Position numbers and translations under genes: made by a program. From positions 64,001-128,000 of the IMG/VR virus record IMGVR_UViG_3300028376_000003: a DNA stretch of 64,000 bases; one strand, written 5' to 3'. This stretch comes from a virus. A model generated the notes under the pieces. The model was not told the origin of the DNA. It worked only from the letters and a program-made list of their open reading frames with translations, and searched no databases. This document shows, piece by piece, positions 34,841-64,000 of the stretch; positions within the stretch are counted from its first letter, which is position 1; each line of letters opens with the position of its first letter.

Positions 34841-34842
34841 AT

Positions 34843-36424: not shown

Positions 36425-36443
36425 ATGTAATAAATATAAAACT

Positions 36444-36653
36444 ATGGAATCTAATAAAAAAGAAACTAATGGGATATTGTCAGTAGTTCTAAATGTTTTC
36501 CTAGTAGCTACAGAAAATAGGCTAATAAGCTTCGCTATCAAAAATAAAGAATTAAGCCCTGAGCAGACTAGTTATATAGAGTCTGAATACGGCAAAATAG
36601 AATCTATCGAAGATGGTAGTAGTGGGTTCACTAAAACTGTTATATACATTTAA
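36444..36653 (+). CDS. Hypothetical protein
   Basis: ORF 36387..36653; probable ATG start at MESNKK. Confidence 0.5.
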   Translation: MESNKKETNGILSVVLNVFLVATENRLISFAIKNKELSPEQTSYIESEYGKIESIEDGSSGFTKTVIYI

Positions 36654-36664
36654 TAAAATGAACT

Positions 36665-36859
36665 ATGTTAATTAGAAAAATGTATACCTTGTACATAAAT
36701 ACAACACTTAGAACTGCATACTTTGGTAATCTAAAGTTTGGATGTAGAATAGGTGGTGCAAAGTTTGGTAAAGTAATTGATTGTAATTTATCTGATTTGA
36801 AACACAACCTAAGAATACTAGCAGAAGAAAATTATTTAATTAATAAACGCACGTATTAA
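36665..36859 (+). CDS. Hypothetical protein
   Basis: 64 aa ORF in a tandem run. Confidence 0.5.
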   Translation: MLIRKMYTLYINTTLRTAYFGNLKFGCRIGGAKFGKVIDCNLSDLKHNLRILAEENYLINKRTY

Positions 36860-36860
36860 A

Positions 36861-37208
36861 ATGAAAATAACAAAAGGAACATTCAAATATACTGGTATTA
36901 ACGATATAGATATTGACTTAGTCACAGACAAGTGGAATCATTTATGGATGCTTGCTGAGTGGAAAGTAGACAATTCTTGGAAAATAGTCAAATATATTAG
37001 AAAAGACTCTCAAAATACCGAGATAAAGCTAACGATATCATGTGAACAAGCAACTGAACTTATTAAAAACCTTGGCTTAATTAATATTAATACTGGGTTT
37101 CAAAGTGGTTACTCTTGGAGGACTAAAAAGGATATGGTGTATTTAGAGAACTGGAGATTGGCAAGACATAAGAAATTACAGACCAAATTAATAACAAACA
37201 ACTTTTAA
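36861..37208 (+). CDS. Hypothetical protein
   Basis: 115 aa ORF. Confidence 0.6.
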   Translation: MKITKGTFKYTGINDIDIDLVTDKWNHLWMLAEWKVDNSWKIVKYIRKDSQNTEIKLTISCEQATELIKNLGLININTGFQSGYSWRTKKDMVYLENWRLARHKKLQTKLITNNF

Positions 37209-37211
37209 ATT

Positions 37212-37478
37212 ATGAAAGATACATTTAGATACTTCATCAGAAAGAACTTCTCTGAGATTGGCGAAATAAGCAATGAGGATATTGATGAAATCGGAATTGA
37301 ATTTCACAAGTACTTGGATAGCAAATTAAATGATGACCAAAAGGCTAAAATACTACCAAAAAGTGCGATTGATGTAATAATGAATAGCGACCACCCACTT
37401 AAAACAAACGGATTTGAGCCAGCATATATGCTACATTTTACACAATGGACAAAGGAACAAAGTGAATCGCAAGACTAG
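37212..37478 (+). CDS. Hypothetical protein
   Basis: 88 aa ORF. Confidence 0.6.
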   Translation: MKDTFRYFIRKNFSEIGEISNEDIDEIGIEFHKYLDSKLNDDQKAKILPKSAIDVIMNSDHPLKTNGFEPAYMLHFTQWTKEQSESQD

Positions 37479-37543
37479 TTAAATGTTTTTATAAATTTTT
37501 TGGCTATTAGCTTCTATATTTACACAATAATAATAATAAAACA

Positions 37544-37765
37544 ATGAATAAAGACAATAATTCTATTATAGATACTAATGTACCTCTTTTTAAGTATATC
37601 GAGATTAAGGATTATGACAATGATAGTGTTGTTAAGCGACTAGATGTAAGCGATAAATCCGATAGGCGTATAGATACTATCGAAAGTGGGATTGATATAA
37701 ACTTAAACCATGACCAATACTATACGTTTAGTCATGATAGTGAAGTTGAATTAGAACTCATATGA
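37544..37765 (+). CDS. Hypothetical protein
   Basis: 73 aa ORF. Confidence 0.6.
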   Translation: MNKDNNSIIDTNVPLFKYIEIKDYDNDSVVKRLDVSDKSDRRIDTIESGIDINLNHDQYYTFSHDSEVELELI

Positions 37766-37794
37766 AAATAAATTTAAATCTTTTTAAAAAACAC

Positions 37795-37905
37795 TTGTGA
37801 GAAACAAATATTAGTTATATATTTGCACAGAACCTAAAATAATTTAAACTTTTAGTAAAAAAAAGAATATAAATAACCAAAGGAAGAAATAAAATTTAAT
37901 ATATA
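37795..37905 (+). promoter_or_regulatory. Stacked promoter cassette (TTG-N20-TATATTTG; AAACTTTT-N14-TATAAA; TTAATATATA)
   Basis: Motifs at 37795-37825, 37846-37873, 37896-37905; near-duplicate at 42504-42613. Confidence 0.65.
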
Positions 37906-37911
37906 ATAGTG

Positions 37912-38031
37912 ATGAAAAATTTAAACCTAAATACAAATAGAAACTTAACGCTCAATGTGGTGAATATTATGTTATGTAATAGACCATCTAGGGGTTCTAG
38001 TGTATTTAATAAATTTCATCTTATGACATAG
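37912..38031 (+). CDS. Attenuator leader peptide 3 (MKNLNLNTNRNLTLNVVNIMLCNRPSRGSSVFNKFHLMT)
   Basis: Codons 3-24 encode only N/L/T/R/V/I/M/C, the amino acids of the 11 downstream tRNAs. Confidence 0.82.
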   Translation: MKNLNLNTNRNLTLNVVNIMLCNRPSRGSSVFNKFHLMT

Positions 38032-38054
38032 TGAAATAAAAAATACAAATAACT

Positions 38055-38090
38055 AAAACCCCTAGAAATGAAAATTCTAGGGGTTTTTTT
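38055..38090 (+). terminator. Attenuator terminator 3
   Basis: aaaacccctagaa-atgaaaa-ttctaggggttttttt; 5' arm also pairs perfectly with tctaggggtt (37987-37996). Confidence 0.9.
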
Positions 38091-38097
38091 GTTTTAT

Positions 38098-38182
38098 GCT
38101 AGTGTGGTGGAATGGTAGACACGAGGGATTCAAAATCCTTTAATCAGAAATGATTATATGAGTTCAAATCTCATCATTAGTA
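38098..38182 (+). tRNA. tRNA-Leu (CAA)
   Basis: aggga-TTCAAAA-tcctt, long variable arm. Confidence 0.88.
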
Positions 38183-38194
38183 CATATATTACAA

Positions 38195-38268
38195 TCCTCG
38201 TTAGCTCAGTGGTCAGAAGCTCTCGTCTGTTAAACGAAAGGTCGGTGGTTCGAATCCACCACGAGGAG
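38195..38268 (+). tRNA. tRNA-Asn (GTT)
   Basis: ctcgt-CTGTTAA-acgaa; G73. Confidence 0.9.
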
Positions 38269-38276
38269 CAAATAAT

Positions 38277-38358
38277 CGGCATATACCAGCCCAAGCTGAT
38301 ACCTTGGAGAACTGTAGTTGGTAAGTTGAAAACGTAGGTTCGAGTCCTACTGTGCCGA
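38277..38358 (+). tRNA. Atypical tRNA-Ile (GAT): no D-arm, 26-nt variable region
   Basis: cggcata/tgtgccg acceptor, 7-nt linker, ccaag-CTGATAC-cttgg, gtagg-TTCGAGT-cctac. Confidence 0.7.
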
Positions 38359-38372
38359 CTTTTATGACACTT

Positions 38373-38457
38373 GTCGGAGTGGTGGAATGGCAGACACGCT
38401 GGGTTTAAGCTCCAGTGGGCAGTGATGTCCGTGAGGGTTCGAGTCCCTTCTCCGATA
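38373..38457 (+). tRNA. tRNA-Leu (TAA)
   Basis: ctggg-TTTAAGC-tccag, long variable arm. Confidence 0.88.
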
Positions 38458-38466
38458 CGAATAAAT

Positions 38467-38556
38467 GCCAGTGTGGTGAAATTGGATGAAACACGCTAGT
38501 CTTAGGAACTAGTACCCAAGAGGTAAACATTGTCGGTTCGAGTCCGACCACTGGTA
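38467..38556 (+). tRNA. tRNA-Leu (TAG)
   Basis: ctagt-CTTAGGA-actag. Confidence 0.88.
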
Positions 38557-38566
38557 CAAAATAAAT

Positions 38567-38647
38567 GCCTTAGTAGTCCCGATTGTCTTCTAAACAATTA
38601 AGGGTAATTGGAAGCTGAAAATATAGGTTCGAGTCCTATCTAGGGTA
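38567..38647 (+). tRNA. Atypical tRNA-Arg (TCT): no D-arm, 24-nt variable region
   Basis: gccttag/ctagggt acceptor, 8-nt linker, attgt-CTTCTAA-acaat, atagg-TTCGAGT-cctat. Confidence 0.7.
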
Positions 38648-38656
38648 CAAATAAAA

Positions 38657-38730
38657 AGTTCTGTAATTCAGGGGTTCAGAATGCTTCCCTTACAAGGAAG
38701 AAGTCGTTGGTTCGAATCCAACCAGAACTA
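38657..38730 (+). tRNA. tRNA-Val (TAC)
   Basis: cttcc-CTTACAA-ggaag. Confidence 0.9.
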
Positions 38731-38736
38731 CAAAAT

Positions 38737-38808
38737 GTACCTATGACCGAGTGATTTAGGTAGGTGGCTGCAACCCATCGTACGGGGGTTTGAATCCCTC
38801 TAGGTACT
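38737..38808 (+). tRNA. tRNA-Cys (GCA)
   Basis: ggtgg-CTGCAAC-ccatc; U73. Confidence 0.88.
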
Positions 38809-38815
38809 CTAATAT

Positions 38816-38888
38816 GCTGACATAGCTCAATTGGTAGAGCATTTGATTTGTAATCAAAAGGTTGTGGGTTCGAAGCCCTCTGTCAGCT
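38816..38888 (+). tRNA. tRNA-Thr (TGT)
   Basis: tttga-TTTGTAA-tcaaa. Confidence 0.9.
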
Positions 38889-38898
38889 CTGAAAAAAT

Positions 38899-38988
38899 GC
38901 ACTAGTGGCGAAGTGGATGAAACGCATCAGACTTAAAATCTGATACCCTTTGAGGTGAACAACGTGGGTTCAAATCCCACCTGGTGTA
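38899..38988 (+). tRNA. tRNA-Leu (TAA), second copy
   Basis: tcaga-CTTAAAA-tctga, long variable arm. Confidence 0.88.
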
Positions 38989-38992
38989 CTAA

Positions 38993-39078
38993 ATCGCTAT
39001 GAACAGATGTGGTAATTGTGCTTGGCTCATATCCAAGTTAGAGAAATCTTATTGTTGGTTCAAGTCCAACTAGCGGTA
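38993..39078 (+). tRNA. tRNA-Met (CAT), elongator or Ile2, with long variable arm
   Basis: cttgg-CTCATAT-ccaag; acceptor atcgcta/tagcggt. Confidence 0.75.
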
Positions 39079-39080
39079 CA

Positions 39081-39120
39081 AAAAAAGAGGGGATATAATT
39101 AATTATATCCCCTCTTTTTT
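39081..39120. terminator. Bidirectional terminator
   Basis: aaaaaagaggggatataattaattatatcccctctttttt, a perfect palindrome. Confidence 0.88.
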
Positions 39121-39132
39121 ATATTATTTGTT

Positions 39133-39564
39133 TTATTTATTTTTAAGACTTTCTATATCATCCCTTATCTCATCTATATCATCTAAAGATATATCATCCA
39201 AATCTTTACCAGCATCACCAGTATTATCTGTTACTACAGGAATAACATCTTCTATCCCTTTATCTATTTCCTTAGCAATGTAATCATCCCCTGCAATACT
39301 CTCTCTTTCTATTTGTAAACAGAACTGTGCTAATACTGCTAAATCATCATTTTTCTGTGCTAAATCGAATACTTTGCTATTAAGTTCATATTTTGACATA
39401 CCTCTAAATTTCTTTCTAGTATAGTAGTCATAGAAATCTTGCTCTTCTCTAGACATAACATTAGATGGTTTTCTATCAATACCAAATATCTCTGTCTTTT
39501 TAGCTTTTGCAGTTACTGCTTCGCTCACTTTTTTATTGTTAAAGTCTTTATATTTTTTTATCAT
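39133..39564 (-). CDS. Probable capsid-internal protein
   Basis: MIKKYKDFNNKKVSE N-terminus; TTAATATATA upstream. Confidence 0.6.
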   Translation of the reverse strand: MIKKYKDFNNKKVSEAVTAKAKKTEIFGIDRKPSNVMSREEQDFYDYYTRKKFRGMSKYELNSKVFDLAQKNDDLAVLAQFCLQIERESIAGDDYIAKEIDKGIEDVIPVVTDNTGDAGKDLDDISLDDIDEIRDDIESLKNK

Positions 39565-39582
39565 ACTCTTATATATTAATTT

Positions 39583-40218
39583 TTATTTACCATTTATTTC
39601 TTCAAACTCTTTTTCTAAATAAAGATAAATGTATTTTTTATACCTTTTCTTAATATCATCACTCACCGCCCTTGATATTCCCATCCATAGACCAATACTT
39701 TTTAATTTAGAAAATGCATCTTTTATATCATTTGGATTTCTTTCCATTATTAGGTCTGTTATAGATTGTGAAAAAGCCATTACCTCATCTTTATTCGAAA
39801 AATAAGCCTTTTGATCTGAAATGTTTCCTAAAAATTCAAAATTTAAATCAGCTGGTCGTCTCAAACCTTGTTTTAAATGTATATTTTCATGCTTTAATAC
39901 GTGGATAGCAAAACTGATATCATTACTCTCAAGATATCTTACATTATTAGCAAGAACCAATCTAGGCTTTTTAGTAACTGGGTTTAATAAACCAAATACT
40001 TTCATACCATTTGGTGGTGCATCTTCCCTCATTTTATCAGTTGGTAATTCATCATAGAATGTTCTGTAATAAACAACCTCTATATCATTTTTTGCACCAA
40101 TTCTTTGTAATTCATCAACACTAATACTCCACTCAGCCTCGACCTCTTTTATAAACTTTTCTAAATTATCAGACTTCCAATCTATTATTGCCTCATTAAA
40201 CTTTTTTAAATGTTTCAT
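39583..40218 (-). CDS. Probable capsid-internal zincin-motif (HExxH) protein
   Basis: MKHLKKFNE N-terminus; HENIHLKQ...YFSNKDEVMAF. Confidence 0.65.
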   Translation of the reverse strand: MKHLKKFNEAIIDWKSDNLEKFIKEVEAEWSISVDELQRIGAKNDIEVVYYRTFYDELPTDKMREDAPPNGMKVFGLLNPVTKKPRLVLANNVRYLESNDISFAIHVLKHENIHLKQGLRRPADLNFEFLGNISDQKAYFSNKDEVMAFSQSITDLIMERNPNDIKDAFSKLKSIGLWMGISRAVSDDIKKRYKKYIYLYLEKEFEEINGK

Positions 40219-40234
40219 TATTATTCTTTTTTTT

Positions 40235-42460
40235 TTAGAAATTTTCGTTTAATGGAAAATTCTTTAGATAAATTTTATCATTGGCATTATCACCAAATAT
40301 TAAATATTTAGAGTCATCACCCAATATATATTGATTCAATACTTTATTATGAGCTTCCTCTGGGATAACATCACTAAAAAGTCTTATGTTAGTAACCTTC
40401 ATATCAGATGCTAATATCTTAGGATTTTTATCAATATTATACTGAATAGGTTCTATGTCTTGTTTATTATAATACTCTTTTCTCAAAATTGTACTATTAA
40501 GCATTTTTGCATCATCTTCTATATCTACATTTCTCTTATATATATAATTTTCAATATACCTTTGACGTTGGTTTAAATTTAGCACATAACAATACCAAGT
40601 ATCTTCCTCTAATGCATCACTTTCCCCATCATTTAACTCAAATATATATTCTTCTTCATTCATAGTAACTGTAATGCTATCATTCTTTAGACTAGACTTC
40701 CATCCTTTATTAATCCCATTGTCATAAACGTCCATAAATTTATAAACTTCATCTTTTATGTAGTTATTTATACTAAACCAAACTTGTAATGATATGTTGT
40801 CAGATACATCAAGTATAGAATTAAAGTTCTTGTATTGAACTGCCAAACCATTATATTCTACTGTTGATAAATCATAACAATATTTAGATATTATGGTTGT
40901 TGAGTTTTCAATAAGTTCTTTATCAACTTCAGAAAAATACTCAAGTCTAATAGGATCTCTAGATAAAGGTTGTTGTTCCTTCTTATTAGCAATTGACTTC
41001 TTATCTTGTTCTATCTCCTTTCCAAATAGTTCATCAATAGTAGTATTCTTTGTTAACTCACTAATGCTATTAGAAATTTCTGGAATATCTGTCTGAACAT
41101 TTGATTTTTGAGAATATTTTTTGAGAATAAGTTTATAATAAACAGCCGCATTATTAAAATTTCTAAACTGTTGAGCATGGTCAACTTGATACATTCTATT
41201 AACTTGACAAAAATGTATAAAATCTTCTTTAGAAGGTCTTCTCTGGACACCAAACATTTCCTTAAATTGTTTCTTTGTTATATGTGCTTCCATTGAATCA
41301 AATAATCCTAAATCGAATATGTTCATCTTAATCTGTGAGTCTGGAAAATTATTACCATCAATAGATATTTTTAAATCTCCCTCACACACAACATTATATA
41401 ATTGATATTCATTAAGTGTGTGGTCTTGACCATTGGCATCTGGATCAGTTGCATAATAAGTTACTTTATGTCCTAGTACTTGTTCAGAGTCTGTACTTAA
41501 TTTTTCATATAGTTGAGTAGCTTGTGTTTGTTCATAAGGATTATATAACTGAGCCTTGTCTGTATCTGTCATTGGTTTAAATGCATCATTCTCACCTTCA
41601 CAGTTGTTACCTGTTGTGTTTAAATTATCATTCATTATATACTTACCTTCACTGTTTATATAGCCTATCTGGTTGGATTTACAACATTCTCTTATCCCAA
41701 ATAGATTACTCTTTTTATAATCTTCCTTAACATTTTGAAAATCTCCTACTAAATTTATGTCTTGAAACCTAGACACTGATCCCGATTTGTTATCAATAAG
41801 ATATTCTATTTCAAAGAAACGTATAGGGTTTATCCTTTTGGTTGTTATATTTTCTTTAGTCAATGGTTCCCATTCAGTCCAAGTTCTAGAGTTATCTTGT
41901 GAGAATCTATACTTTATACTTATGTCATCTAAACTAGTTATATTAATGATTTGTATATCTTCTAATTTAAAAACTTTATATATGAAAGGTGCTTTTACTA
42001 TCTTAGAATCACCTGGCTCTATATAAAATGCTTGTTCACCATTGAATTGTATTTCTTGTCTATCTATAATACCTTCTAATTTATATTCTAGTATTCTTAT
42101 ACTACCTATTTCAGAAGTTCCCTTTCTCACCCATTTAATTTCAAGGTACATACTATCTAGTGTATCAACAACTGGGAAGTTGGTTATATTAATATTTAAG
42201 TCTAACCACTCAGACCATGTGTTACCATCTCTGGAAACTCTATAATATTGTAAGAGAAATCTATCTTGTTTAAGACCTAAACTATCGTATGTAAATCTTT
42301 TGAACTTTTCCACATTATCTAACTTATCAAAAGATAATATGTATTCATCATTGATAGAATTTAGATAAGGAGTTTCATCTTCAACACCAGTTGCCATCAC
42401 GTCATATTCATCTGATATAGTTATTATTCCTTTCTCAAAATCTGAGTTTATATTTACCAT
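40235..42460 (-). CDS. Neck/head-completion protein with T4 gp14-like core and extra domains
   Basis: LYNPY...GHKVTYY...DHTLNEY...FKEMFG..RPSKEDFIHF..NRMYQV; LamG-like C-terminus. Confidence 0.55.
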   Translation of the reverse strand: MVNINSDFEKGIITISDEYDVMATGVEDETPYLNSINDEYILSFDKLDNVEKFKRFTYDSLGLKQDRFLLQYYRVSRDGNTWSEWLDLNINITNFPVVDTLDSMYLEIKWVRKGTSEIGSIRILEYKLEGIIDRQEIQFNGEQAFYIEPGDSKIVKAPFIYKVFKLEDIQIINITSLDDISIKYRFSQDNSRTWTEWEPLTKENITTKRINPIRFFEIEYLIDNKSGSVSRFQDINLVGDFQNVKEDYKKSNLFGIRECCKSNQIGYINSEGKYIMNDNLNTTGNNCEGENDAFKPMTDTDKAQLYNPYEQTQATQLYEKLSTDSEQVLGHKVTYYATDPDANGQDHTLNEYQLYNVVCEGDLKISIDGNNFPDSQIKMNIFDLGLFDSMEAHITKKQFKEMFGVQRRPSKEDFIHFCQVNRMYQVDHAQQFRNFNNAAVYYKLILKKYSQKSNVQTDIPEISNSISELTKNTTIDELFGKEIEQDKKSIANKKEQQPLSRDPIRLEYFSEVDKELIENSTTIISKYCYDLSTVEYNGLAVQYKNFNSILDVSDNISLQVWFSINNYIKDEVYKFMDVYDNGINKGWKSSLKNDSITVTMNEEEYIFELNDGESDALEEDTWYCYVLNLNQRQRYIENYIYKRNVDIEDDAKMLNSTILRKEYYNKQDIEPIQYNIDKNPKILASDMKVTNIRLFSDVIPEEAHNKVLNQYILGDDSKYLIFGDNANDKIYLKNFPLNENF

Positions 42461-42503
42461 AACTCTATATATTAAAAAAGATTATTTTAATTTAAAAAAA
42501 ACC

Positions 42504-42613
42504 TTGTATAAACCATTTATTTATATTATATTTGCATAGAAATAATATAATTCTAAACTTTTATAAAAAAAAGTCTATAAATAACCATAGAGAGAAATAA
42601 AAGTTAATATATA
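42504..42613 (+). promoter_or_regulatory. Stacked promoter cassette (TTG-N20-TATATTTG; AAACTTTT-N13-TATAAA; TTAATATATA)
   Basis: Motifs at 42504-42534, 42555-42581, 42604-42613. Confidence 0.65.
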
Positions 42614-42620
42614 AAACATA

Positions 42621-42725
42621 ATGAAAAATTTAAACTTAAACATAGTAGTTAACCCTCAACCCCAAGTTGATATCGATCAGGATTCTGATACGAAAGGTGC
42701 TAACTATGTTTTAAATTTAAGTTGA
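42621..42725 (+). CDS. Attenuator leader peptide 4 (MKNLNLNIVVNPQPQVDIDQDSDTKGANYVLNLS)
   Basis: PQPQVDIDQDSD block before a terminator and (Asp-Gln-Pro)x2 tRNAs. Confidence 0.82.
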   Translation: MKNLNLNIVVNPQPQVDIDQDSDTKGANYVLNLS

Positions 42726-42743
42726 TATTTAAATAATAAAAAC

Positions 42744-42783
42744 AAAAACTCGGTTAGTCTTTTAGATTAACCGAGTTTTTTTT
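42744..42783 (+). terminator. Attenuator terminator 4
   Basis: aaaaactcggttagtct-ttt-agattaaccgagtttttttt. Confidence 0.9.
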
Positions 42784-42791
42784 GTTTATAT

Positions 42792-42864
42792 AGCTCTGAG
42801 GTCAAATGGTTAAGATGTACGTCTGTCTCACGTAACGGAGTGGGTTCGATTCCCATCAGAGCTG
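42792..42864 (+). tRNA. tRNA-Asp (GTC)
   Basis: tacgt-CTGTCTC-acgta; G73. Confidence 0.85.
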
Positions 42865-42876
42865 CTAATATTAAAT

Positions 42877-42950
42877 TGCCCCATAGTGTAATTGGCTAAC
42901 ACATCTGGTTTTGGTCCAGAAGATTGCAGGTTCGAACCCTGCTGGGGTAA
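42877..42950 (+). tRNA. tRNA-Gln (TTG)
   Basis: tctgg-TTTTGGT-ccaga. Confidence 0.9.
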
Positions 42951-42959
42951 CAAGTTAAT

Positions 42960-43033
42960 CGAGAAGTGACTAAGGTTATAAGCACGGGTGCATTGGAGGC
43001 ATCAGTTAGCAGGTTCGATTCCTGTCTTCTCGA
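42960..43033 (+). tRNA. tRNA-Pro (TGG)
   Basis: ggtgc-ATTGGAG-gcatc; C1:G72, A73; weak D-arm. Confidence 0.78.
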
Positions 43034-43045
43034 CAAATTTTTAAT

Positions 43046-43117
43046 AGTCCATTAGTGTAAAGGTTATCATTTCCGACTGTCTCTCGGAAGATAGGGGTTC
43101 GAATCCCCTATGGACTG
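43046..43117 (+). tRNA. tRNA-Asp (GTC), second copy
   Basis: tccga-CTGTCTC-tcgga; G73. Confidence 0.85.
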
Positions 43118-43123
43118 CAAAAA

Positions 43124-43197
43124 TGCTCTATAGTGTAATTGGTTAACACGTCTGGCTTTGGTCCAGGAGATTGTAGGTTCGAACCCTACTGGGGCAA
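43124..43197 (+). tRNA. tRNA-Gln (TTG), second copy
   Basis: tctgg-CTTTGGT-ccagg. Confidence 0.9.
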
Positions 43198-43206
43198 CAA
43201 GTATAG

Positions 43207-43279
43207 CGAGGGTGTAGTGTAATCTGGTAACACACGATGTTTGGGACATCGAATTGCTGTTCGAATCGGACATCTTCGA
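43207..43279 (+). tRNA. tRNA-Pro (TGG), second copy; 8-bp acceptor and short T-stem
   Basis: cgatg-TTTGGGA-catcg; cgagggtg/catcttcg. Confidence 0.72.
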
Positions 43280-43302
43280 CAAAAATTATAGTTAAAACTA
43301 AA

Positions 43303-53157: not shown

Positions 53158-55407
53158 TTAAATAATCTTTTTAATTATCCCTAGCCTATAGTCGTAAGAG
53201 AAATTAATAGCTATATAGGGTGATTTATCTAACCTAGCTTTTCTTCTAAGATCGTCTATTTTAATATTTTTATAATGTTTATTACTATTTATACCATAAT
53301 TATATTTATACCCAGAAGTAGGTGATGATATATTTTTTATTATTTTTATCATCTTACCTACCGAAATGGCGGTACCACCTTCATTAAAATCTTTATCAAA
53401 ACTATCGTACATGCTCTTGGTGAATGGACCAACCCATTTGCCTTTAACGTCCTGTACTATAAAAAATACTTCTGAACCGTTGCTTCTAAGTGGGTTAGAA
53501 TTTGCCGACATATAACTTGGTGGTGTTGTGTTATAATGCTTGACTGGGTATATATTGTTACTCGAACTTTCATTACTTTGATGAAGACTGTCATCTATGT
53601 AATCTACTATTTCAGTATTATTTGTAATATTAAAATCATTATAATGTACATATATCTCGTCAAGTGTTAAGGAACTACCACTCAATAATTTTAAATGATC
53701 AACCCAAAGTTTTCTTAAACTCTCATTATATTTTATATCAACGACATAGCCATTTGATGTGGTGGGACAAGTGTCTATAATATTTATAGTAGCAGTTTTA
53801 TTCCGACCCCATCTGTTACATCTTCCTATCCGTTGTAATGTGGATTCTGGGGATAATGGTATCTCATATAGATTATTAAAAGATATATCAAGAGCCGCTT
53901 GTAAAATAAGTGTTGATATGTAAGGCTTTCTGTTAGTTGTTTTAGAATCCTTACCATAATCCTTTAATAATTTATCAAACATCTTTAATTTATCACCTTC
54001 TATGAAATTAGAGTGTATTAATATAGCATCTGTTAACTCCTTTGCAATTTCTTGGGATTCTTTTATTGAGTTAACAAATAATATCTCATCGTTTGATATT
54101 GTACTAGGTATCTTATTTATAATATTAACTTTATATTCTTTCTTATGTATAGAAGGTAAGTGGTTTTTTCCATTAGGTATAATCTTAGTTTTGTTTGAAT
54201 TAGTAGTCCACAAATGGCTTATATCGATGGGTGTAGCACTTAATAACAAAGTTCTAGAATCTGTCTTTATGTTTCTAACTCTCATAAGGTTTATAAAGAG
54301 GCTAAATATAGGTAAATCAGTTACATTTTCATGATACTCATCAAATATAACATCACTATGTATTATAAAATACATAAGAGACATGTCTTTACCAGCATTA
54401 CTATATGGTCTTAGATAATAATCAATGTTTGTAATAATGATATCTGCTTCTTTTCCTTCTCCATTAAAGCTTGACTTTTGAACCTTCCCAGCATACCTTA
54501 GTTCTATATTTACTTTCTTTTCAGAGTCTTCTAATTCTTTTACAATAGAATAGTATGTTGATATTGCTATATTATTTCTAGGACATACCCACAATAACTT
54601 TTTATCTGACTTCTCACTCCACATAAGACCTAACATAGTTTTACCAAATCCTGTAGGTGCTTTAATTATTGTAGTTTTATCCTCATCCTTAATATCATTT
54701 ATAATCTTTTTTTGCTCTTTGAATCTTTTGTCGTCAGGGAAGTGACAAACTTCAAATAAGAACTTGTTTGCTTTTTTAAGATTTATATCATCAGCACCAG
54801 ATATAGTTCTATCAGAATAAACTAATATCATTCTAATTAATGTTATATCTCGGTTGAGGTTGTCTGTTTTTTCTTTCCTATCTTTGTTAAATAAAAAGTA
54901 ATCAGGTCTAGTATTGTTATTTTTTTTAGGATTATTAATGATATACTTACTGTCAATTAGTTTACCAAGCTCTTTCTTCATGGTATCTATATCACTAGAT
55001 GGTATACTACCTAAAACATCTTTGGCACAAATCCCCTCATTGTCCAAGATACCATGATGCCAATATATTAGATTGGGTATTATGTTTTTACCAACACAAT
55101 TCTTTATTTCGTTGTCTTTGAAATAATTTACATAATCGAAATAAGTATCTACAAAAGCCCATGAAACTTGTTGATGTAAGTACTTGTTTTTATGTTTCTT
55201 ATCTACTTTCTCTCCATTTATATGTTTTTGGAAAGAGTCTGTTGACTTCCCAATATCGTGTAATAGAGAAGCTACCTTTATGTTTACCATTAAGTGTTCT
55301 TTCACATTTGGTAATTTTTTTAATTCTTTCACAGCCTTATCACTGACTTCCTTTGAATGTTCCTCTAATGATATATTATTACCATTATTCGACTTTGCTA
55401 CTATCAT
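53158..55407 (-). CDS. cas3: CRISPR-associated HD nuclease-helicase Cas3 (no Cas2 fusion)
   Basis: LEEH, LLHDIGK, HHG, APTGFGKT, DEYH, SAT, QRIGRCNR; next to the array. Confidence 0.93.
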   Translation of the reverse strand: MIVAKSNNGNNISLEEHSKEVSDKAVKELKKLPNVKEHLMVNIKVASLLHDIGKSTDSFQKHINGEKVDKKHKNKYLHQQVSWAFVDTYFDYVNYFKDNEIKNCVGKNIIPNLIYWHHGILDNEGICAKDVLGSIPSSDIDTMKKELGKLIDSKYIINNPKKNNNTRPDYFLFNKDRKEKTDNLNRDITLIRMILVYSDRTISGADDINLKKANKFLFEVCHFPDDKRFKEQKKIINDIKDEDKTTIIKAPTGFGKTMLGLMWSEKSDKKLLWVCPRNNIAISTYYSIVKELEDSEKKVNIELRYAGKVQKSSFNGEGKEADIIITNIDYYLRPYSNAGKDMSLMYFIIHSDVIFDEYHENVTDLPIFSLFINLMRVRNIKTDSRTLLLSATPIDISHLWTTNSNKTKIIPNGKNHLPSIHKKEYKVNIINKIPSTISNDEILFVNSIKESQEIAKELTDAILIHSNFIEGDKLKMFDKLLKDYGKDSKTTNRKPYISTLILQAALDISFNNLYEIPLSPESTLQRIGRCNRWGRNKTATINIIDTCPTTSNGYVVDIKYNESLRKLWVDHLKLLSGSSLTLDEIYVHYNDFNITNNTEIVDYIDDSLHQSNESSSNNIYPVKHYNTTPPSYMSANSNPLRSNGSEVFFIVQDVKGKWVGPFTKSMYDSFDKDFNEGGTAISVGKMIKIIKNISSPTSGYKYNYGINSNKHYKNIKIDDLRRKARLDKSPYIAINFSYDYRLGIIKKII

Positions 55408-55460
55408 ATTAATATTTTAGACTGCGAATATACTAATAAAAAAAACAATTGCTATATATA

Positions 55461-57000
55461 TTTATGATTACCTTATGTATTAATATGATTACTACTAATA
55501 ATTAGCTTCGATTGTTGCGAAGGTCGGTTTTGATTACCTTATGTATTAATATGGTTACTATCTCCAAAAAGGGGTGTTAAGTCTACTTCGTAGTTGTGAT
55601 TACCTTACGTATTAATATGATTACTATCTACATAACTTTTACTCCTGGGAGAAGAGTAGTTGTGATTACCTTGCGTATTAATATGATTACTATCATCACG
55701 TTTACAATGATTAAAGGGGTGATGGTTGTGATTACCTTGCGTATTAATACGATTAGTACAAACCGCTAGCATTCATGTTGTGATTACCTTGTGTATTAAT
55801 ATGATTATTATCTCCTTTAACTGAAAATTAGACCATTTCATGTTGTGATTACCTTGCGTATTAATATGATTAATATTTCATATTCAGACAGTTTAAACGT
55901 GTATTTAGTTGTGATTACCTTATGTATTAATATGATTACTATCTAAAGTAGGAGGCAGAACATCATCTATATTGTTGTGATTACCTTACGTGTTAATATG
56001 ATTACTATCATGCTACCATGCTTTATAAAATAATTACCAGTTGAGATTACCTTACGTATTAATATGATTACTATCTTAAAATCAAAACAGCCAATATAGA
56101 CGAGTGTTGTGATTACCCTATGTATTAATATGATTACTATTTTTTGTATAATCCTAGCCATAATGGCGTTGTTGTGATTACCTTATGTATTAATATGATT
56201 ATTATCACTTTTCAAAAAGAGTCCTATTAAGTATTTGTTGTGATTACCTTGCGTATTAATATGATTACTATCAAAAATAACACTAAGATATTCAGGTTCT
56301 ATGTTATGATTACCTTACGTATTAATATGATCACTATCTAAGCCTTTTGGTAGATATTTGTGTTAAGGTTGTGATTACCCTATGTATTAATATGATTTCT
56401 ATATAGTGCTATTAAAGCATATGTCAATAAAGTGTTGTAATTACTACATTTAATTATTTAGTGGTTTGTTTTAAAATGTCAAAGAACTATTTTTATCTAT
56501 GTAGATAATTACCTTACGTATTAATATGATTACTATCAAAGAATGATGAAGCTACTTATTAAGCTACCGTTGTGATTACCTTACGTATTAATATGATTAC
56601 TATCTAGGAGGTCTTTTGCTACAAATTTTTATGGGTTGTGATTACCTTGCGTATTAATATGATTACTATCATAATCGAGTTGTTGGAACTTTGATTTGTG
56701 GTTGTGATTACCTTGTGTATTAATATGATTACTATCTTGCAAGATTTTCTAGCTTGCGTTGTAAGTGTTGTGATTACCTTGCGTATTAATATGATTACTA
56801 TCATGCTGTAATTAAGATGATGGTAGGTCCATGTTGTGATTACCTTGCGTATTAATATGATTACTATCTATCACGTACCAATTCATTTTTACCCTTATGT
56901 TGTGATTACCTTGCGTATTAATATGATTACTATCAGAAAATTTATCCAAAGGAATACTTATCCCGTTGTGATTACCTTGCGTATTAATATGATTACTATC
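55461..57000. CRISPR. CRISPR array: 36-nt repeat GTTGTGATTACCTTGCGTATTAATATGATTACTATC, ~24 repeats, mostly 29-31-nt spacers, in two blocks
   Basis: Repeats at 55461, 55527, 55593 ... 56368, partial at 56434, then 56502 ... 56965; best conserved at the right (cas6) end, degenerate at the left. Confidence 0.97.
56476..56488 (-). promoter_or_regulatory. boxA-like antitermination element inside the array
   Basis: Minus strand reads AGTTCTTTGACAT in the non-spacer interruption. Confidence 0.5.
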
Positions 57001-57003
57001 CTA

Positions 57004-57038
57004 ACTTATATATCTAGCTGAAAGCTAGATATATAAGT
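57004..57038. repeat. 16-bp perfect hairpin between the array and cas6
   Basis: acttatatatctagct-gaa-agctagatatataagt. Confidence 0.8.
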
Positions 57039-57060
57039 GTCATTTAGGATATAAAAACTA

Positions 57061-57765
57061 CTAAAATAGCTCTTCTTTTGGATGGTATTTGCTAATATTA
57101 TCAGTTCTAATTAGAGTCCCAAACCCCGAACCAGTGCTATTACCCAATCCATAATTATATATATGTTCAATAAGACTTCTATCACCATATATAGTGAGTG
57201 GACAATAGCTAGATTTGTTTCTGATGTTATTTACATAAACATTTATAGTTCTGTTTGATTTGTTATTATGACCAATTTCAATTTTGAAGTCTTTGAAACT
57301 TAATCCTTTATTTATCTTAGAAAACTTGGATCTAGTTTGTTCTTCTAAAGCTTTTTCAAATCCACTATCTTTTAATGTTAAAAATCCTAATTTTGTCTTT
57401 AGAAGAATACCATTCCTAAGTGTTTTAAAATGATTATATCCACTATAAAAATTTCCAGATATGTAATCAATACCATTTACTTTCATACCCTTTCCTAGAT
57501 TACCATCTAAATGTAATCCATTTATGACTTTACCGATAAAATCTTCTTTCAACGAACTCACAACAATAAAGCCACCATTTGGAAAATTTACATCTCGTCC
57601 ACCATTTATAAACACACCACCTTCTAGGTTTGATATTGTATAATCTGATACAGAGTTATGATATTTGTTGTTCTTGCCTAGACATTTATGTATAAATCCA
57701 TTTACTATTTTCTGATTATTAATTAATGGTTCAGTGTTTGGAGTAAAACTAATTTTAATTCTCAT
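57061..57765 (-). CDS. cas6: CRISPR endoribonuclease Cas6
   Basis: C-terminal G-rich loop YGLGNSTGSGFG; YH...SDYTIS.L. Confidence 0.9.
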   Translation of the reverse strand: MRIKISFTPNTEPLINNQKIVNGFIHKCLGKNNKYHNSVSDYTISNLEGGVFINGGRDVNFPNGGFIVVSSLKEDFIGKVINGLHLDGNLGKGMKVNGIDYISGNFYSGYNHFKTLRNGILLKTKLGFLTLKDSGFEKALEEQTRSKFSKINKGLSFKDFKIEIGHNNKSNRTINVYVNNIRNKSSYCPLTIYGDRSLIEHIYNYGLGNSTGSGFGTLIRTDNISKYHPKEELF

Positions 57766-57775
57766 GTTTTATGTT

Positions 57776-58645
57776 TTAATGGTTAATAATTTGATTTGAT
57801 ATATCAGATACTTTTTTGTATTTATCAAACTCTCTGCTACTTATATCTTCTTCATCAATGATGCCATCAATAAATACAATACCACCATCTAATATAGTTG
57901 AAAATGGCTTCATCACACTCTCCCTTTCTCGTAAAAAGTCATTTACTGGTATTAATATTTCACCATTGTATATTTCAAACTTCTCAATACCACTATTTAC
58001 CAATATAGGACTTCCATCTTGTATTGATGAAGTTACAGTATTTTTACCAGTCTGGATAGTTCTAACCAATGCTGTTTTACCAAGTCTAGAAATAGCTACA
58101 AAAACAGCTTTGACTTTTGTGTCATCTTTTATATTTCTTATCTCTGACTCTATGTCTTTGTAGTTATATTCTAGAATGTTCTTTTTAAGTATTTTTGAAA
58201 ACTCCTTTACAAAATACCCCCAGGCTAGACCTTTATTATAAGTCATATATTTTCTAACTAGTTCCCAATTCAATTTAATTGATGGATTAAATGAATTGTA
58301 GAAAGCTTTCTTAGTTGATATAGTCTCTAGATACTTATTGACCTTATTGTTTTTAAAAACAGGTTTAAACACAGTTTCTACACGAATAAGTGAATTTGAC
58401 ACCAAGTCATCAATTTCACTTATTCTCTTATAAAAGACTTTTCTATGAAGAGGAACAGGTCTCTCACCTAGAAGTACATGAATTGAATTAGACAATTGAT
58501 GATGTGTTATTGGCTCTACATAAGAAAATAAGTTATTTCTATTAACTCTATGAACTTTAGGCCCAGAATATATAGACTTGTCTTTAGTGCCTTTATTATA
58601 CCTAAATAATTTGGCATCTTTGAATATTAGTTTAAGATATTCCAT
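57776..58645 (-). CDS. cas5: Probable Cas5 (Cas5fv-like)
   Basis: Lies between cas7 and cas6; ITHHQLSNSIHVLLGER helix motif and C-terminal TILDGG; size fits a Cas5 with an inserted helical domain. Confidence 0.6.
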   Translation of the reverse strand: MEYLKLIFKDAKLFRYNKGTKDKSIYSGPKVHRVNRNNLFSYVEPITHHQLSNSIHVLLGERPVPLHRKVFYKRISEIDDLVSNSLIRVETVFKPVFKNNKVNKYLETISTKKAFYNSFNPSIKLNWELVRKYMTYNKGLAWGYFVKEFSKILKKNILEYNYKDIESEIRNIKDDTKVKAVFVAISRLGKTALVRTIQTGKNTVTSSIQDGSPILVNSGIEKFEIYNGEILIPVNDFLRERESVMKPFSTILDGGIVFIDGIIDEEDISSREFDKYKKVSDISNQIINH

Positions 58646-58654
58646 AAATTATTT

Positions 58655-59740
58655 TTATTTCTTTTTAGACTTTAATGCTTTCTCTTCAGCCGCCTCTTTG
58701 ATTATAGCCTTTTCTTTTTCGATACCTTTATTAATTCTTTCTTCTGTTTTTTCAACTATATGACCACTAACTTCCTCATAAAAATCAAAGGGTTTAAACG
58801 AGATATTTTTAATATCTTTCATATTTTTTATATCATCCCAACCTTCTGGATTTCTCATAGTATCTACATAAGGATCTCTTACTAGCTTTATTCTAACGCT
58901 AATTACATCAGCACTAGCATTACTTCTTTTTATTTGTGTTTTTAACAAACGGTATATATATTCTTTTACCAAATATACAACATTATCATCATTCAGCTTA
59001 ATACCATATTCTGCAAGATCTAGACATGATGTTGATAATTTGTAATATGCCAACTTTGTATCAGTGCTATTAAGATTCATATTCAAAGACTTTATCAATA
59101 TCTCAGCATTATCTGGATTAAATCCATATCTATCGAAAGCTGCATCACAAGATAAAAATTGTAATTGTCCAATGTCTATAAAGGAAGTACCACTATATTT
59201 TATATCTCCTAAAGACTCATATTGAAACAAGCTTGTACTACCCTTTCCAGAGATTGGAGACTTTTTACTACCTGCTTTAACTGCTTGTGGTAAAGTAGGT
59301 AGTGCAGTACATGTCTGTTGGATATTGCCTGTGGTTATTGGACCTTTTCTTTTTAAACTTTCACCCTTTGTTGCTTTCAAATAACCCTTTAGGATTGCAT
59401 GTGTAGATCCTAGGTAGTTATAAAGAGTATTCTTATCATATAAAGCTCTTGGGTTATCTTCTACGTAATCTTCTTTAAACAGTGCCTTGTTAAAACATTC
59501 TGCTGATATCTTAACCTTAAAATCTAACTGACCTTTCTCGTTATAGAAGAAATTCTTTTTAGAATAGTTACAATTATCGTTAATCTGTGCCAATGCTTTT
59601 ACTTTTGGCATTCTATCATCATCTTTTTTATTAGCATCTTTGAAGAACATGAACTTCTGATCTGTTGAATCAAAGTTTACAATACCACTTCCTTCTAATT
59701 TAAAGTCTACTAGAATACCACTTACTGGTGAATTACTCAT
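58655..59740 (-). CDS. cas7: Cas7, type I-F2 (Cas7fv)-like
   Basis: Blocks GSGIVNFD, ISAECFNKALF, ILKGY...KRKGP, STSLF..ESLGD.KY, IGQLQFLSCDAAFDR, EYGIKLNDD resemble the Shewanella Cas7fv sequence as recalled. Confidence 0.8.
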   Translation of the reverse strand: MSNSPVSGILVDFKLEGSGIVNFDSTDQKFMFFKDANKKDDDRMPKVKALAQINDNCNYSKKNFFYNEKGQLDFKVKISAECFNKALFKEDYVEDNPRALYDKNTLYNYLGSTHAILKGYLKATKGESLKRKGPITTGNIQQTCTALPTLPQAVKAGSKKSPISGKGSTSLFQYESLGDIKYSGTSFIDIGQLQFLSCDAAFDRYGFNPDNAEILIKSLNMNLNSTDTKLAYYKLSTSCLDLAEYGIKLNDDNVVYLVKEYIYRLLKTQIKRSNASADVISVRIKLVRDPYVDTMRNPEGWDDIKNMKDIKNISFKPFDFYEEVSGHIVEKTEERINKGIEKEKAIIKEAAEEKALKSKKK

Positions 59741-59859: not shown

Positions 59860-60255
59860 TTATAAATTTTCTTGTCTAAGCCTATCCCCAACCTCTTTAA
59901 TTATCTGATCATCAGATAATTCTGGGTTTTTTTCTTTTAATGTTCTAAATAACTCATTTTCTTCCTTTTGTAGTTTCTCAATCTCTTTATTCATGGGTGC
60001 CATAAGTGTTTCTAGCTTATTTCCCTCTACCTCTACCTCTTTAATAACCTCCATTAGCTTAGATATTGACTTCTCTGGATCAGTTACCTTCTTACTCTTG
60101 ATGTCTTTTTGTAGCTTATCTAGACTCTCTATATTCTTATCTAGAATAGATACTATTTCTTTTGATCTTTTGTGATATAGTTCTATATTAGATGAAACCT
60201 TTAAATACTCTTGTCTTATAGTTACTGCTGATTGTAATAAATTTTCTTGAATCAT
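59860..60255 (-). CDS. Coiled-coil hypothetical protein
   Basis: 131 aa helical ORF. Confidence 0.7.
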   Translation of the reverse strand: MIQENLLQSAVTIRQEYLKVSSNIELYHKRSKEIVSILDKNIESLDKLQKDIKSKKVTDPEKSISKLMEVIKEVEVEGNKLETLMAPMNKEIEKLQKEENELFRTLKEKNPELSDDQIIKEVGDRLRQENL

Positions 60256-63533: not shown

Positions 63534-64000
63534 TTATTCTTCTAGTTTAAACATAGTCTTTTCATCTGCCGAGTACATAACTTTTTTAGATGATAGAGTA
63601 GCATTGTAATTATCAACAACATACTTTTTACCCTTACCTTTCTTCACATAAGCTATTGTGATATGTGGATTATAATCAGGGAAGTCTGTAGTATGTGGCA
63701 ATATAGATAATTTTTCATTAATATCTAACAATTCTTTAGTTTTTTTAACTTTGAATTTAACAACATCAAACTTATCATTCTCAAATAAATCAACTGACTC
63801 TAATTCTATATCAATAGAAGTATAACCTTCAAATGCCTTTTTCACGTCATCTATGCTAACTTCATCTTTATGAAGTCCAAATAGAAGTGTTAAGTGAGGC
63901 TCATCTTCCAAACCATCTTCACCTATATCCTCTTTGTCTATAAAGCTAGTTATTTCTTCCCAGTTCTTAACATTGAAGTATAACATAGCACATCCATATT
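63534..64000 (-). CDS. 2H phosphoesterase, T4 gp57B/Acb1-like (start probably beyond the window)
   Basis: Two HxT motifs, PHLTLLFG and PHITIAY; frame open to the window end (YGCAMLYF). Confidence 0.75.
   Translation of the reverse strand, partial: YGCAMLYFNVKNWEEITSFIDKEDIGEDGLEDEPHLTLLFGLHKDEVSIDDVKKAFEGYTSIDIELESVDLFENDKFDVVKFKVKKTKELLDINEKLSILPHTTDFPDYNPHITIAYVKKGKGKKYVVDNYNATLSSKKVMYSADEKTMFKLEE

What the first reader, a model, noticed from the sequence alone, without database searches (positions are those of the whole stretch)
53158..59740. Phage-encoded minimal type I-F2-like CRISPR-Cas with a non-I-F Cas6, unfused Cas3 and no adaptation genes
Seen: cas7, cas5-like, cas6, array, cas3, all genes on the minus strand, with no cas8, cas11, cas1, cas2 or cas4 in the window. 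Cas7 resembles Cas7fv. Established: I-F2 uses Cas5fv, Cas7fv, Cas6f, a Cas2-Cas3 fusion and 28-nt repeats. Here Cas6 has the longer form with a GLGxxxxxGFG loop, Cas3 starts directly with the HD domain (749 aa), and repeats are 36 nt. Inference: a chimeric, very compact, interference-competent class 1 variant.
Basis: partly seen in the sequence, partly recalled or inferred. Interest (0 to 1): 0.8.

Follow-up and report, generated by a model that had tools for sequence, protein, structure and literature searches.

The report
Huge-phage Cas8-less type I CRISPR-Cas3 module
A salt-lake giant phage carries an intact four-gene, DNA-shredding CRISPR system related to the smallest known type I system (I-F2) but built with a different RNA-processing enzyme, an unfused Cas3 and no spacer-capture genes. 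Copies of the same phage from other samples show that its array still gains new spacers.

Summary
On the minus strand lie cas7 (58655-59740), a 289-aa gene (57776-58645), cas6 (57061-57765), 23 repeats of 36 nt with 30-nt spacers (55461-57000), and an HD-helicase cas3 (53158-55407). No cas1, cas2 or cas4 was found in the 141.5-kb viral contig, nor in three complete related phage genomes of 310-362 kb.

- **Cas7:** a distant relative of Cas7fv.
- **The 289-aa protein:** no sequence family. Its model's best structural match among 48,161 PDB chains is Cas5fv, followed by other Cas5 proteins, not Cas8.
- **Cas6 and repeat:** I-B-like, not I-F-like.
- **Cas3:** no Cas2 domain; its helicase is closest to the I-F2 Cas3.

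The same four genes plus a 36-nt-repeat array recur in 27 IMG/VR loci. The Cas5-like family has 526 clusters at 50% identity. Only one hit appeared in 185,579 prokaryotic species genomes. This is therefore one member of a widespread huge-phage lineage, not a one-off chimera. I found no published name for it. This scan had already noted the family on several other phage genomes.

New here: 12 near-identical copies of this phage (11 fetched loci plus the window), with three partial arrays, carry collinear arrays that differ mainly at the cas6-proximal end. That indicates recent polarised spacer gain. Spacer targets and the PAM remain unknown.

The parts
58655..59740 (-). cas7 (361 aa). Cas7fv-like backbone subunit with a K/E-rich C-terminal tail of about 40 aa beyond the Cas7fv model.
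   Evidence: NCBIfam Cas7fv 1.1e-24. PADLOC Cas7fv 9e-20. PDB 5o6u_C and 9g44_F 2.6e-13. Relatives carry Pfam PF28157 Cas7fv-like. Sequence.
57776..58645 (-). cas5-like gene (289 aa). RRM core with an inserted helical domain of about 85 aa (residues ~123-207). Proposed PAM-reading subunit that caps the crRNA 5' handle.
   Evidence: No sequence family. AF2 model pLDDT 84. Best fold match Cas5fv 5o6u_F: Foldseek prob 0.97, VIA Z 7.4 over 199 residues; then 9g44_B and Cas5 of other type I systems. Always found between cas7 and cas6.
57061..57765 (-). cas6 (234 aa). Classical or I-B-type pre-crRNA endoribonuclease with a glycine-rich loop at residues 206-216.
   Evidence: TIGR01877 5.5e-14. Pfam Cas_Cas6_C 1.6e-11. 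PADLOC Cas6b 1.2e-36, full length. Sequence.
57001..57060 (-). Leader. Contains a perfect 16-bp hairpin (57004-57038) ending 3-4 nt before the first repeat.
   Evidence: RNA fold -20 kcal/mol, z -5.5. New spacers appear next to this end in sister alleles. The hairpin loop is inverted in two alleles.
56502..57000 (-). CRISPR array block 1: 8 repeats of 36 nt and 7 spacers of 30-31 nt. This is the block that gains spacers.
   Evidence: Allele comparison.
56404..56501 (-). 98-nt non-repeat gap between the two blocks. It holds the best sigma-70-like match of the region, on the minus strand.
   Evidence: TTGACA-18-AATAAT, 11 of 12, at 56482->56453. Its similarity to the repeat is not significant.
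55461..56403 (-). CRISPR array block 2: 15 more degenerate repeats and 14 spacers, with a decayed terminal repeat. It changes only by loss.
   Evidence: Every allele with a complete block 2 starts with the same spacer and ends with the same one; contig-truncated copies agree as far as they extend. Alleles differ by presence or absence.
53158..55407 (-). cas3 (749 aa). HD nuclease fused to an SF2 helicase, with no Cas2 domain.
   Evidence: TIGR01596 HD at residues 14-203 and TIGR01587 helicase at 246-557. PADLOC Cas3fv 6.3e-47 (helicase part) and Cas3b 2.6e-37 (full length). PDB 9g44_A 9.3e-32. Motifs H17, H50-D51, H117-H118, D199, GFGKT 253-257, DEYH 356-359, SAT 390-392, QRIGRCNR 525-532.

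Best explanation
This is a functional Cas8-less and Cas11-less type I CRISPR-Cas3 interference module, carried by a giant phage from lake and salt-lake water.

**Proposed mechanism (inferred by analogy with I-F2 and classical Cas6 systems).**
1. The array is transcribed from the cas6-proximal leader on the minus strand.
2. Cas6 cuts each unstructured 36-nt repeat, probably 8 nt from its 3' end, leaving the conserved handle AUCACAAC.
3. The Cas5-like protein caps that handle.
4. About five or six Cas7 subunits coat the 30-nt guide.
5. The helical insertion of the Cas5-like protein reads the PAM and opens the duplex, as the AH domain of Cas5fv does.
6. The Cas7 backbone docks the stand-alone HD-helicase Cas3, which shreds the target.

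**Likely role.** The phage uses it against competing mobile elements or phages, or possibly the host.

**Spacer supply.** New spacers are still added at the leader end. They must come from Cas1-Cas2 supplied in trans by the host, or from the unsequenced four fifths of the genome.

**Shown versus inferred.** Shown: gene identities, intact motifs, family-wide conservation of the gene set and repeat, and array turnover. Inferred: the complex architecture, cleavage site, PAM reading, Cas3 docking, the targets, and the source of adaptation.
For: **Gene identities.**

**Intact catalytic motifs.** Cas3 HD and helicase motifs; Cas6 G-loop.

**The 289-aa protein is Cas5-like.** Its top match among 48,161 PDB representatives is Cas5fv (Z 7.4, 199 residues aligned). 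The next matches are Cas5 of I-A, I-E, I-C and I-F.

**The module is conserved.**
- The four genes co-occur, with an array after cas6, in every sufficiently long related locus: L001-L004, L007-L032, L043.
- They share only 27-43% identity, which indicates selection on the whole module.
- Family repeats are all 36 nt with a 66-nt period and a conserved 3' end AAGG(G/T)AATCACAAC.
- The Cas5-like family has 526 clusters at 50% identity, 218 of them at E<=1e-30.

**Orientation.** Decayed terminal repeats lie distal to cas6. Alleles differ by unique spacers at the cas6-proximal end.

**No adaptation genes found.** No cas1, cas2 or cas4 in the contig or in three 100%-complete relatives.

**Mechanism template.** In I-F2, the Cas5 AH domain reads the PAM and Cas7 subunits recruit Cas3 (PMC12956352).

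**Phage identity.** IMG/VR virus record, gp32-like SSB, 20 tRNAs, and relatives with direct terminal repeats.
Against: - No protospacer was found for any spacer tested, so targeting, the PAM and the biological role are unproven.
- The Cas5 assignment rests on a middling structural score (Z 7.4, rmsd 9.7 A) with no sequence support.
- No expression data: no RNA run was listed.
- Only about 20% of this phage genome is in hand, so cis-encoded cas1/cas2 cannot be excluded for this phage.
- The window's copy sits on a long branch within the family.
Confidence: 0.75

Rival explanations
1. The system is a canonical member of an already described subtype (I-F2 or I-B) that merely looks odd because it is divergent.
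For: Cas7 hits Cas7fv models. The Cas3 helicase hits Cas3fv and 9g44_A best. Cas6 hits a PADLOC Cas6b model over its full length.
Against: **Defining I-F2 features not met.**
- No Cas2-Cas3 fusion.
- No Cas6f.
- Repeat is 36 nt and unstructured, not a 28-nt hairpin repeat.
- No cas1.
- Cas7 scores 87 bits against a 200-bit family cut-off.

**Against I-B.** No Cas8b was found, and Cas7 and Cas5 are of the I-F2 kind.

**Consistency.** The deviations are constant across more than 25 loci.
Confidence: 0.06
2. The 289-aa protein is a reduced Cas8 (large subunit), so the complex lacks Cas5 rather than Cas8.
For: It has no sequence family. Cas8 proteins are notoriously divergent. It carries a helical domain.
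Against: - The top structural matches are Cas5fv and then Cas5 of five other subtypes. No Cas8 chain appears in the top rows of either search.
- Its size of 289 aa fits Cas5fv (336 aa) rather than Cas8.
- Its position between cas7 and cas6 matches cas5fv.
Confidence: 0.05
3. The module no longer cleaves DNA. It is a decaying remnant, or a regulator that only binds targets.
For: No targets found. Block 2 of the array is decaying, with degenerate repeats and a truncated spacer. No expression data.
Against: - All Cas3 nuclease and helicase motifs are intact.
- All four ORFs are full length and 99-100% conserved across samples.
- Block 1 repeats are perfect and have recently gained spacers.
- The four-gene set is retained across a family at about 30-40% identity.
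Confidence: 0.08
4. The array differences between samples arise only from recombination and deletion among pre-existing arrays, not from ongoing acquisition. On this view no adaptation machinery is needed.
For: Block 2 varies purely by presence or absence of collinear spacers. Deletions clearly occur, for example spacers 26-29 lost in the window allele and a 14-nt deletion.
Against: - Nine spacers, in five lineages, occur only at the leader end of block 1, stacked on a shared older core.
- The intermediates are nested: 4; then 37 on 4; then 36 on 37; and 3 on 4, followed by either 22 or 2 and 1.
- The cas proteins stay 99-100% identical across these alleles.
- Deletion alone cannot create leader-end novelty.
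Confidence: 0.12

Closest known systems
Type I-F2 (formerly I-Fv) CRISPR-Cas of Shewanella putrefaciens CN-32 (PDB 5O6U, 5O7H, 9G44; PMC4937334, PMC12956352)
   Same: - No Cas8 and no Cas11.
- Cas7 is homologous to Cas7fv.
- The Cas5-like protein best matches Cas5fv in fold and carries an inserted helical domain.
- The Cas3 helicase is closest to the I-F2 Cas3.
- Three-protein Cascade plus Cas3.
   Different: - Cas6 is of the classical or I-B type, not Cas6f.
- Cas3 has no Cas2 domain.
- The HD region aligns with Cas3b models rather than the I-F2 HD.
- Repeat is 36 nt and unstructured with handle AUCACAAC, against a 28-nt hairpin repeat.
- Spacers are 30 nt.
- No cas1.
- The Cas5-like protein has no detectable sequence similarity to Cas5fv.
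- It is carried by huge phages, not bacteria.
Type I-B CRISPR-Cas
   Same: Cas6 matches a Cas6b model over its full length. The repeat is long and unstructured with an 8-nt handle of the AUxxxAAC kind (handle comparison from general knowledge). Cas3 is stand-alone, with HD followed by helicase.
   Different: No Cas8b or Cas11. Cas7 and Cas5 are of the I-F2 kind. No Cas1, Cas2 or Cas4.
Vibrio phage ICP1 type I-F system (PMC10161043) and huge-phage CRISPR-Cas systems lacking adaptation genes (Al-Shayeb et al. 2020, PMC7162821)
   Same: Phage-borne type I system. Like most huge-phage systems, it lacks Cas1, Cas2 and Cas4.
   Different: ICP1 has Cas8f (Csy1), a Cas2/3 fusion and its own Cas1. The type I variant described in the 2020 paper is I-C-like, lacks Cas6 and has a non-Cas3 helicase. 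It is not this gene set.

Membership tests
Type I-F2 (I-Fv) | Cas7fv backbone subunit | tested here: inconclusive
   Clear homology (NCBIfam 1.1e-24; PDB 2.6e-13), but 87 bits against a 200-bit equivalog cut-off. It is a distant relative, outside the curated family.
Type I-F2 (I-Fv) | Cas5fv with an AH domain; no Cas8 or Cas11 | tested here: inconclusive
   The best fold match is Cas5fv (Z 7.4 over 199 residues) and a helical insertion is present. There is no sequence similarity. No Cas8 or Cas11 candidate is conserved next to the module.
Type I-F2 (I-Fv) | Cas6f endoribonuclease with a 28-nt hairpin repeat | tested here: not met
   Cas6 matches Cas6b and TIGR01877 models. The repeat is 36 nt, MFE -0.6 kcal/mol, z 0.05.
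Type I-F2 (I-Fv) | Cas2-Cas3 fusion | tested here: not met
   Cas3 is 749 aa and its HD domain starts at residue 14. Relatives are 737-792 aa. No cas2 in the contig.
Type I-F2 (I-Fv) | Adjacent Cas1 adaptation gene | tested here: not met
   No cas1 in the 141.5-kb contig, in three complete relatives, or in five other related records.
Type I (class 1, Cas3-dependent) | Cas3 HD nuclease-helicase together with Cas5, Cas6 and Cas7 and a CRISPR array | tested here: met
Type I-B | Cas8b large subunit with I-B Cas7 and Cas5 | tested here: not met
   No Cas8b hit among the module's genes or its neighbours. Cas7 hits only Cas7fv and Cas7f models.
Huge-phage Cas8-less four-gene family (unnamed) | cas3 + Cas7fv-like + ~290-aa Cas5-like + classical cas6, with a 36-nt repeat ending ...AATCACAAC and 30-nt spacers, on viral contigs | tested here: met

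The most novel reading that the evidence does not exclude
This lineage of giant phages keeps an interference-only, Cas8-less CRISPR-Cas3 system. It updates the array by borrowing a Cas1-Cas2 integrase in trans, from the host or from a co-resident element. The phage would thus run an adaptive immune memory without owning the adaptation genes. The family may also be the sister or ancestral form of subtype I-F2, predating the capture of Cas6f and the Cas2-Cas3 fusion.
Probability: 0.35. Interest if true: 0.8.

Novelty: new variant of a known kind. Interest (0 to 1): 0.62.

Why it matters
- **Diversity of Cas8-less systems.** I-F2 is the only characterised Cas8-less type I design and is being developed as a compact genome-targeting tool. 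A large, diverse, phage-borne sister family greatly widens the sequence space for that design. It differs in its Cas6, its repeat and its stand-alone Cas3. The three Cascade genes here total about 2.7 kb.
- **Evolution of I-F.** It bears on how I-F systems arose.
- **Adaptation without adaptation genes.** The array alleles give a natural data set in which a phage array gains spacers although no adaptation gene is found nearby or in complete relatives. This makes the question of in-trans adaptation by phages directly testable.

Tried and rejected
**Spacer targets: none found.**
- No self-match in the 141.5-kb contig or in any fetched locus.
- The array against GenBank phages gave only chance-level hits.
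- Eight leader-end spacers were scanned with every sixth base wild, in IMG/VR or JGI metagenomes. They found only sister arrays.

**Host repeat: not found.**
- The repeat core is absent from 185,579 species genomes.
- No array with the conserved 3' motif was found in the 401 sampled Bacteroidia genomes.
- No cas1 in the one Bacteroidia MAG that carries a family member.

**Other dead ends.**
- The profile of the Cas5-like family against PDB sequences gave only spurious low-complexity hits.
- The Cas5-like protein is not a Cas7 paralogue by hhalign.
- The 131-aa coiled-coil ORF upstream (59860-60255) had a weak Cas11a hit (E 0.017). It is found only in this phage, not in other family members, so it was rejected as a small subunit.
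- The 98-nt gap is not significantly similar to a repeat.
- Sigma-70-like sites are no more frequent than chance in this AT-rich region.
- No RNA holder was listed among sequencing runs.
- An alternative genetic code is not needed.

**Tools and papers not available.**
- The Cell 2022 paper on virus-encoded CRISPR-Cas systems is not held. I could not check whether it depicts this variant.

Full report
**1. What is in the sequence**

The window is bases 64001-128000 of a 141,527-bp linear IMG/VR virus record. CheckV rates the record about 20% complete. It reads well in the standard code and is about 29% G+C. It carries 20 tRNA genes, a gp32-like SSB and a phage-type NAD ligase. Runs that hold this DNA are lake-water and salt-lake metagenomes.

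On the minus strand, in order of transcription, lie the following:
- cas7, 58655-59740
- a 289-aa ORF, 57776-58645
- cas6, 57061-57765
- a 60-nt leader
- 8 perfect or near-perfect 36-nt repeats, 56502-57000
- a 98-nt gap
- 15 more degenerate repeats, 55461-56403
- cas3, 53158-55407

Spacers are 29-31 nt. The repeat occurs nowhere else in the contig.

**2. Gene identities**

*Cas7.* It hits NCBIfam Cas7fv at 1.1e-24, but with 87 bits against a 200-bit cut-off. It also hits PADLOC Cas7fv and the solved Cas7fv chains 5o6u_C and 9g44_F at 2.6e-13. It has an extra K/E-rich C-terminal tail.

*Cas6.* It matches TIGR01877 and Pfam Cas_Cas6_C. Its best match, over the full length, is a PADLOC Cas6b model at 1.2e-36. 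The glycine-rich loop is at residues 206-216.

*Cas3.* It has the HD domain from residue 14 and the helicase core. The helicase part matches the PADLOC Cas3fv model best (6.3e-47) and the I-F2 Cas3 chain 9g44_A (9.3e-32). The full length, including the HD region, aligns with Cas3b models. All HD, Walker A, DEYH, SAT and motif VI residues are present. There is no Cas2 domain.

*The 289-aa protein.* It has no hit in any profile library or among PDB sequences, even as a 32-sequence profile.
- An AlphaFold model built on that alignment (pLDDT 84) shows an RRM-type sheet interrupted by a helical insertion of about 85 residues.
- Foldseek ranks Cas5fv of the Shewanella I-Fv Cascade first (5o6u_F, probability 0.97), then 9g44_B.
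- VIA-align gives Z 7.4 over 199 residues for 5o6u_F.
- An exhaustive comparison with 48,161 PDB representatives again puts 5o6u_F first, about two Z units above the rest. The next rows are mostly Cas5 subunits of I-A, I-E, I-C, I-F and I-B Cascades.
- The score is middling on its own.
- The top hit out of 48,161 is, however, the partner subunit of the closest relative of the neighbouring gene. No Cas8 appears. I therefore read this protein as a Cas5fv-like subunit, not a Cas8.

**3. It is a family, not a one-off**

- The Cas5-like protein has 70 word-indexed homologues at 27-37% identity.
- An exhaustive profile search finds 526 clusters at 50% identity, 218 of them at E<=1e-30.
- Contexts from assemblies and 27 IMG/VR loci all show cas3, Cas7fv-like, the Cas5-like gene and cas6 together. 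An array follows cas6.
- Many loci lie on contigs of 100-362 kb. Two of these have direct terminal repeats, and three are rated 100% complete.
- There are two gene orders. Most loci read cas3-cas7-cas5-cas6-array. The window, L018 and L024-L032 have cas3 after the array.
- In Cas7 and Cas3 trees the window's copy sits on a long branch and does not group with L018/L024. The rearrangement may therefore have arisen more than once, though the tree is poorly resolved.
- Family repeats are all 36 nt with 30-nt spacers and share the 3' end AAGG(G/T)AATCACAAC.
- The repeat is essentially unstructured (MFE -0.6 kcal/mol, z 0.05). At most it forms a 3-bp stem just before the last 8 nt, with one covarying pair.
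- Among 185,579 prokaryotic species genomes only one locus was found. It is a 9.8-kb contig binned into a Bacteroidia MAG, with the same gene order and repeat type.
- The lineage is thus essentially viral.

**4. Adaptation genes**

TIGR00287 (cas1), TIGR01573 (cas2) and TIGR00372 (cas4) find nothing in this contig. They also find nothing in the three complete relatives or in other related records. For this particular phage, about 80% of the genome is unseen.

**5. The array is alive**

The Cas5-like protein is indexed in 102 blocks of the assembly collection. Fifteen copies with 96-100% identical proteins were compared:
- 11 fetched loci with usable arrays: L008 and L033-L042
- the window itself
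- three partial arrays: L006, L041 and L051

They share 47 distinct spacers in collinear order.

In block 1 the trailer spacers (numbered 5-6-7, then 29, 28, 27, 26, 4) are shared. The cas6-proximal end differs by lineage:
- 1-2-3 on 4 (the window)
- 22-3 on 4
- 23-24-25 on 4
- 37 on 4
- 36-37 on 4 (L051)
- 36-37 with 4 lost

This is the classic signature of polarised acquisition at the leader. It also fixes the leader end and the minus-strand orientation. That agrees with the decayed terminal repeats and the conserved 3' half of the repeat.

Block 2 starts with the same spacer in every allele and ends with the same one wherever the contig reaches its end. It varies only by presence or absence. 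One spacer in the window is a 16-nt truncation of a full spacer seen elsewhere. Block 2 is therefore a decaying older part.

Spacer gain without cas1/cas2 nearby or in complete relatives points to adaptation in trans. This is an inference. The unseen part of this genome is the alternative source.

**6. Mechanism**

By analogy with I-F2, the Cas5 AH domain alone reads the PAM and the Cas7 backbone docks Cas3 (PMC12956352). By analogy with classical Cas6 systems, Cas6 would cut 8 nt from the repeat's 3' end. The Cas5-like protein would cap the AUCACAAC handle and read the PAM with its helical insertion. Five or six Cas7 subunits would hold the 30-nt guide, and Cas3 would degrade the target. None of these steps is tested here.

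**7. Targets**

No protospacer was found. The PAM and the biological role therefore remain open. The role could be rival phages, as reported for other huge-phage systems, other mobile elements, or the host.

**8. Comparison with what is known**

- It works like I-F2, but it fails three of the five defining I-F2 features tested: Cas6f with a hairpin repeat, the Cas2-Cas3 fusion, and Cas1.
- It is not I-B, because it has no Cas8b and its Cas7 and Cas5 are of the I-F2 kind.
- That huge phages carry CRISPR-Cas systems without adaptation genes is established (PMC7162821; PMC11656645).
- The type I variant described there is I-C-like and different from this one.
- Full-text searches found no description of this gene set. 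The Cell 2022 survey of virus-encoded systems could not be read.
- A Pfam family named Cas7fv-like (PF28157) already covers the Cas7 proteins.
- Earlier notes of this scan describe the same family on several other huge-phage genomes. I re-derived the family independently here.

**9. Verdict**

This is a real, intact and compact system. It is a new variant of a known kind and a member of a widespread, apparently unnamed huge-phage lineage. The added value of this window is the population-level evidence for ongoing spacer gain.

Noticed in passing
window 57004-57038 (minus strand): A perfect 16-bp hairpin (RNA -20 kcal/mol, z -5.5) ends 3-4 nt before the first repeat. Its loop is inverted (TTTCA versus TGAAA) in sister alleles L008 and L033. 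By eye, other family members also have a palindrome between cas6 and the first repeat. It could be a cas6 terminator or a leader element for spacer integration.
   Followed up: partly
window 56404-56501: A 98-nt non-repeat gap splits the array. It holds the best sigma-70-like match of the region on the array strand (TTGACA-18-AATAAT). It is identical in every sister allele whose contig reaches it, and may be an internal promoter for the older block.
   Followed up: partly
window 63534-63986 (minus strand; ORF cut by the window end): A 2H-phosphoesterase with a hit just above threshold to the anti-CBASS protein Acb1 (Pfam 30.2 bits against a 27-bit cut-off). It lies about 4 kb upstream of the CRISPR module, next to an RNase T-like exonuclease and the gp32-like SSB.
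   Followed up: partly
L018:4712-6502 and L024:4233-6851: Two related huge phages have 7-10 tandem paralogous ORFs of about 88 aa directly upstream of cas7. They share N- and C-terminal motifs (…GDKLLCKK… and …YFYTKQE.RK.KL.K). Function unknown. They are absent from this window.
   Followed up: no
window 55725-55776: The 16-nt 'spacer' and the odd repeat start are a 14-nt deletion across a spacer/repeat border. The full 30-nt spacer is present in sister alleles.
   Followed up: yes
window 25479-43280: Twenty tRNA genes lie in four clusters. Earlier first-reader notes on this genome propose leader-peptide attenuators in front of them. I did not examine this.
   Followed up: no
window 59860-60255 (minus strand): A 131-aa coiled-coil ORF lies just upstream of cas7, with a weak PADLOC Cas11a hit (E 0.017). 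It is conserved only in copies of this phage, not across the family.
   Followed up: yes
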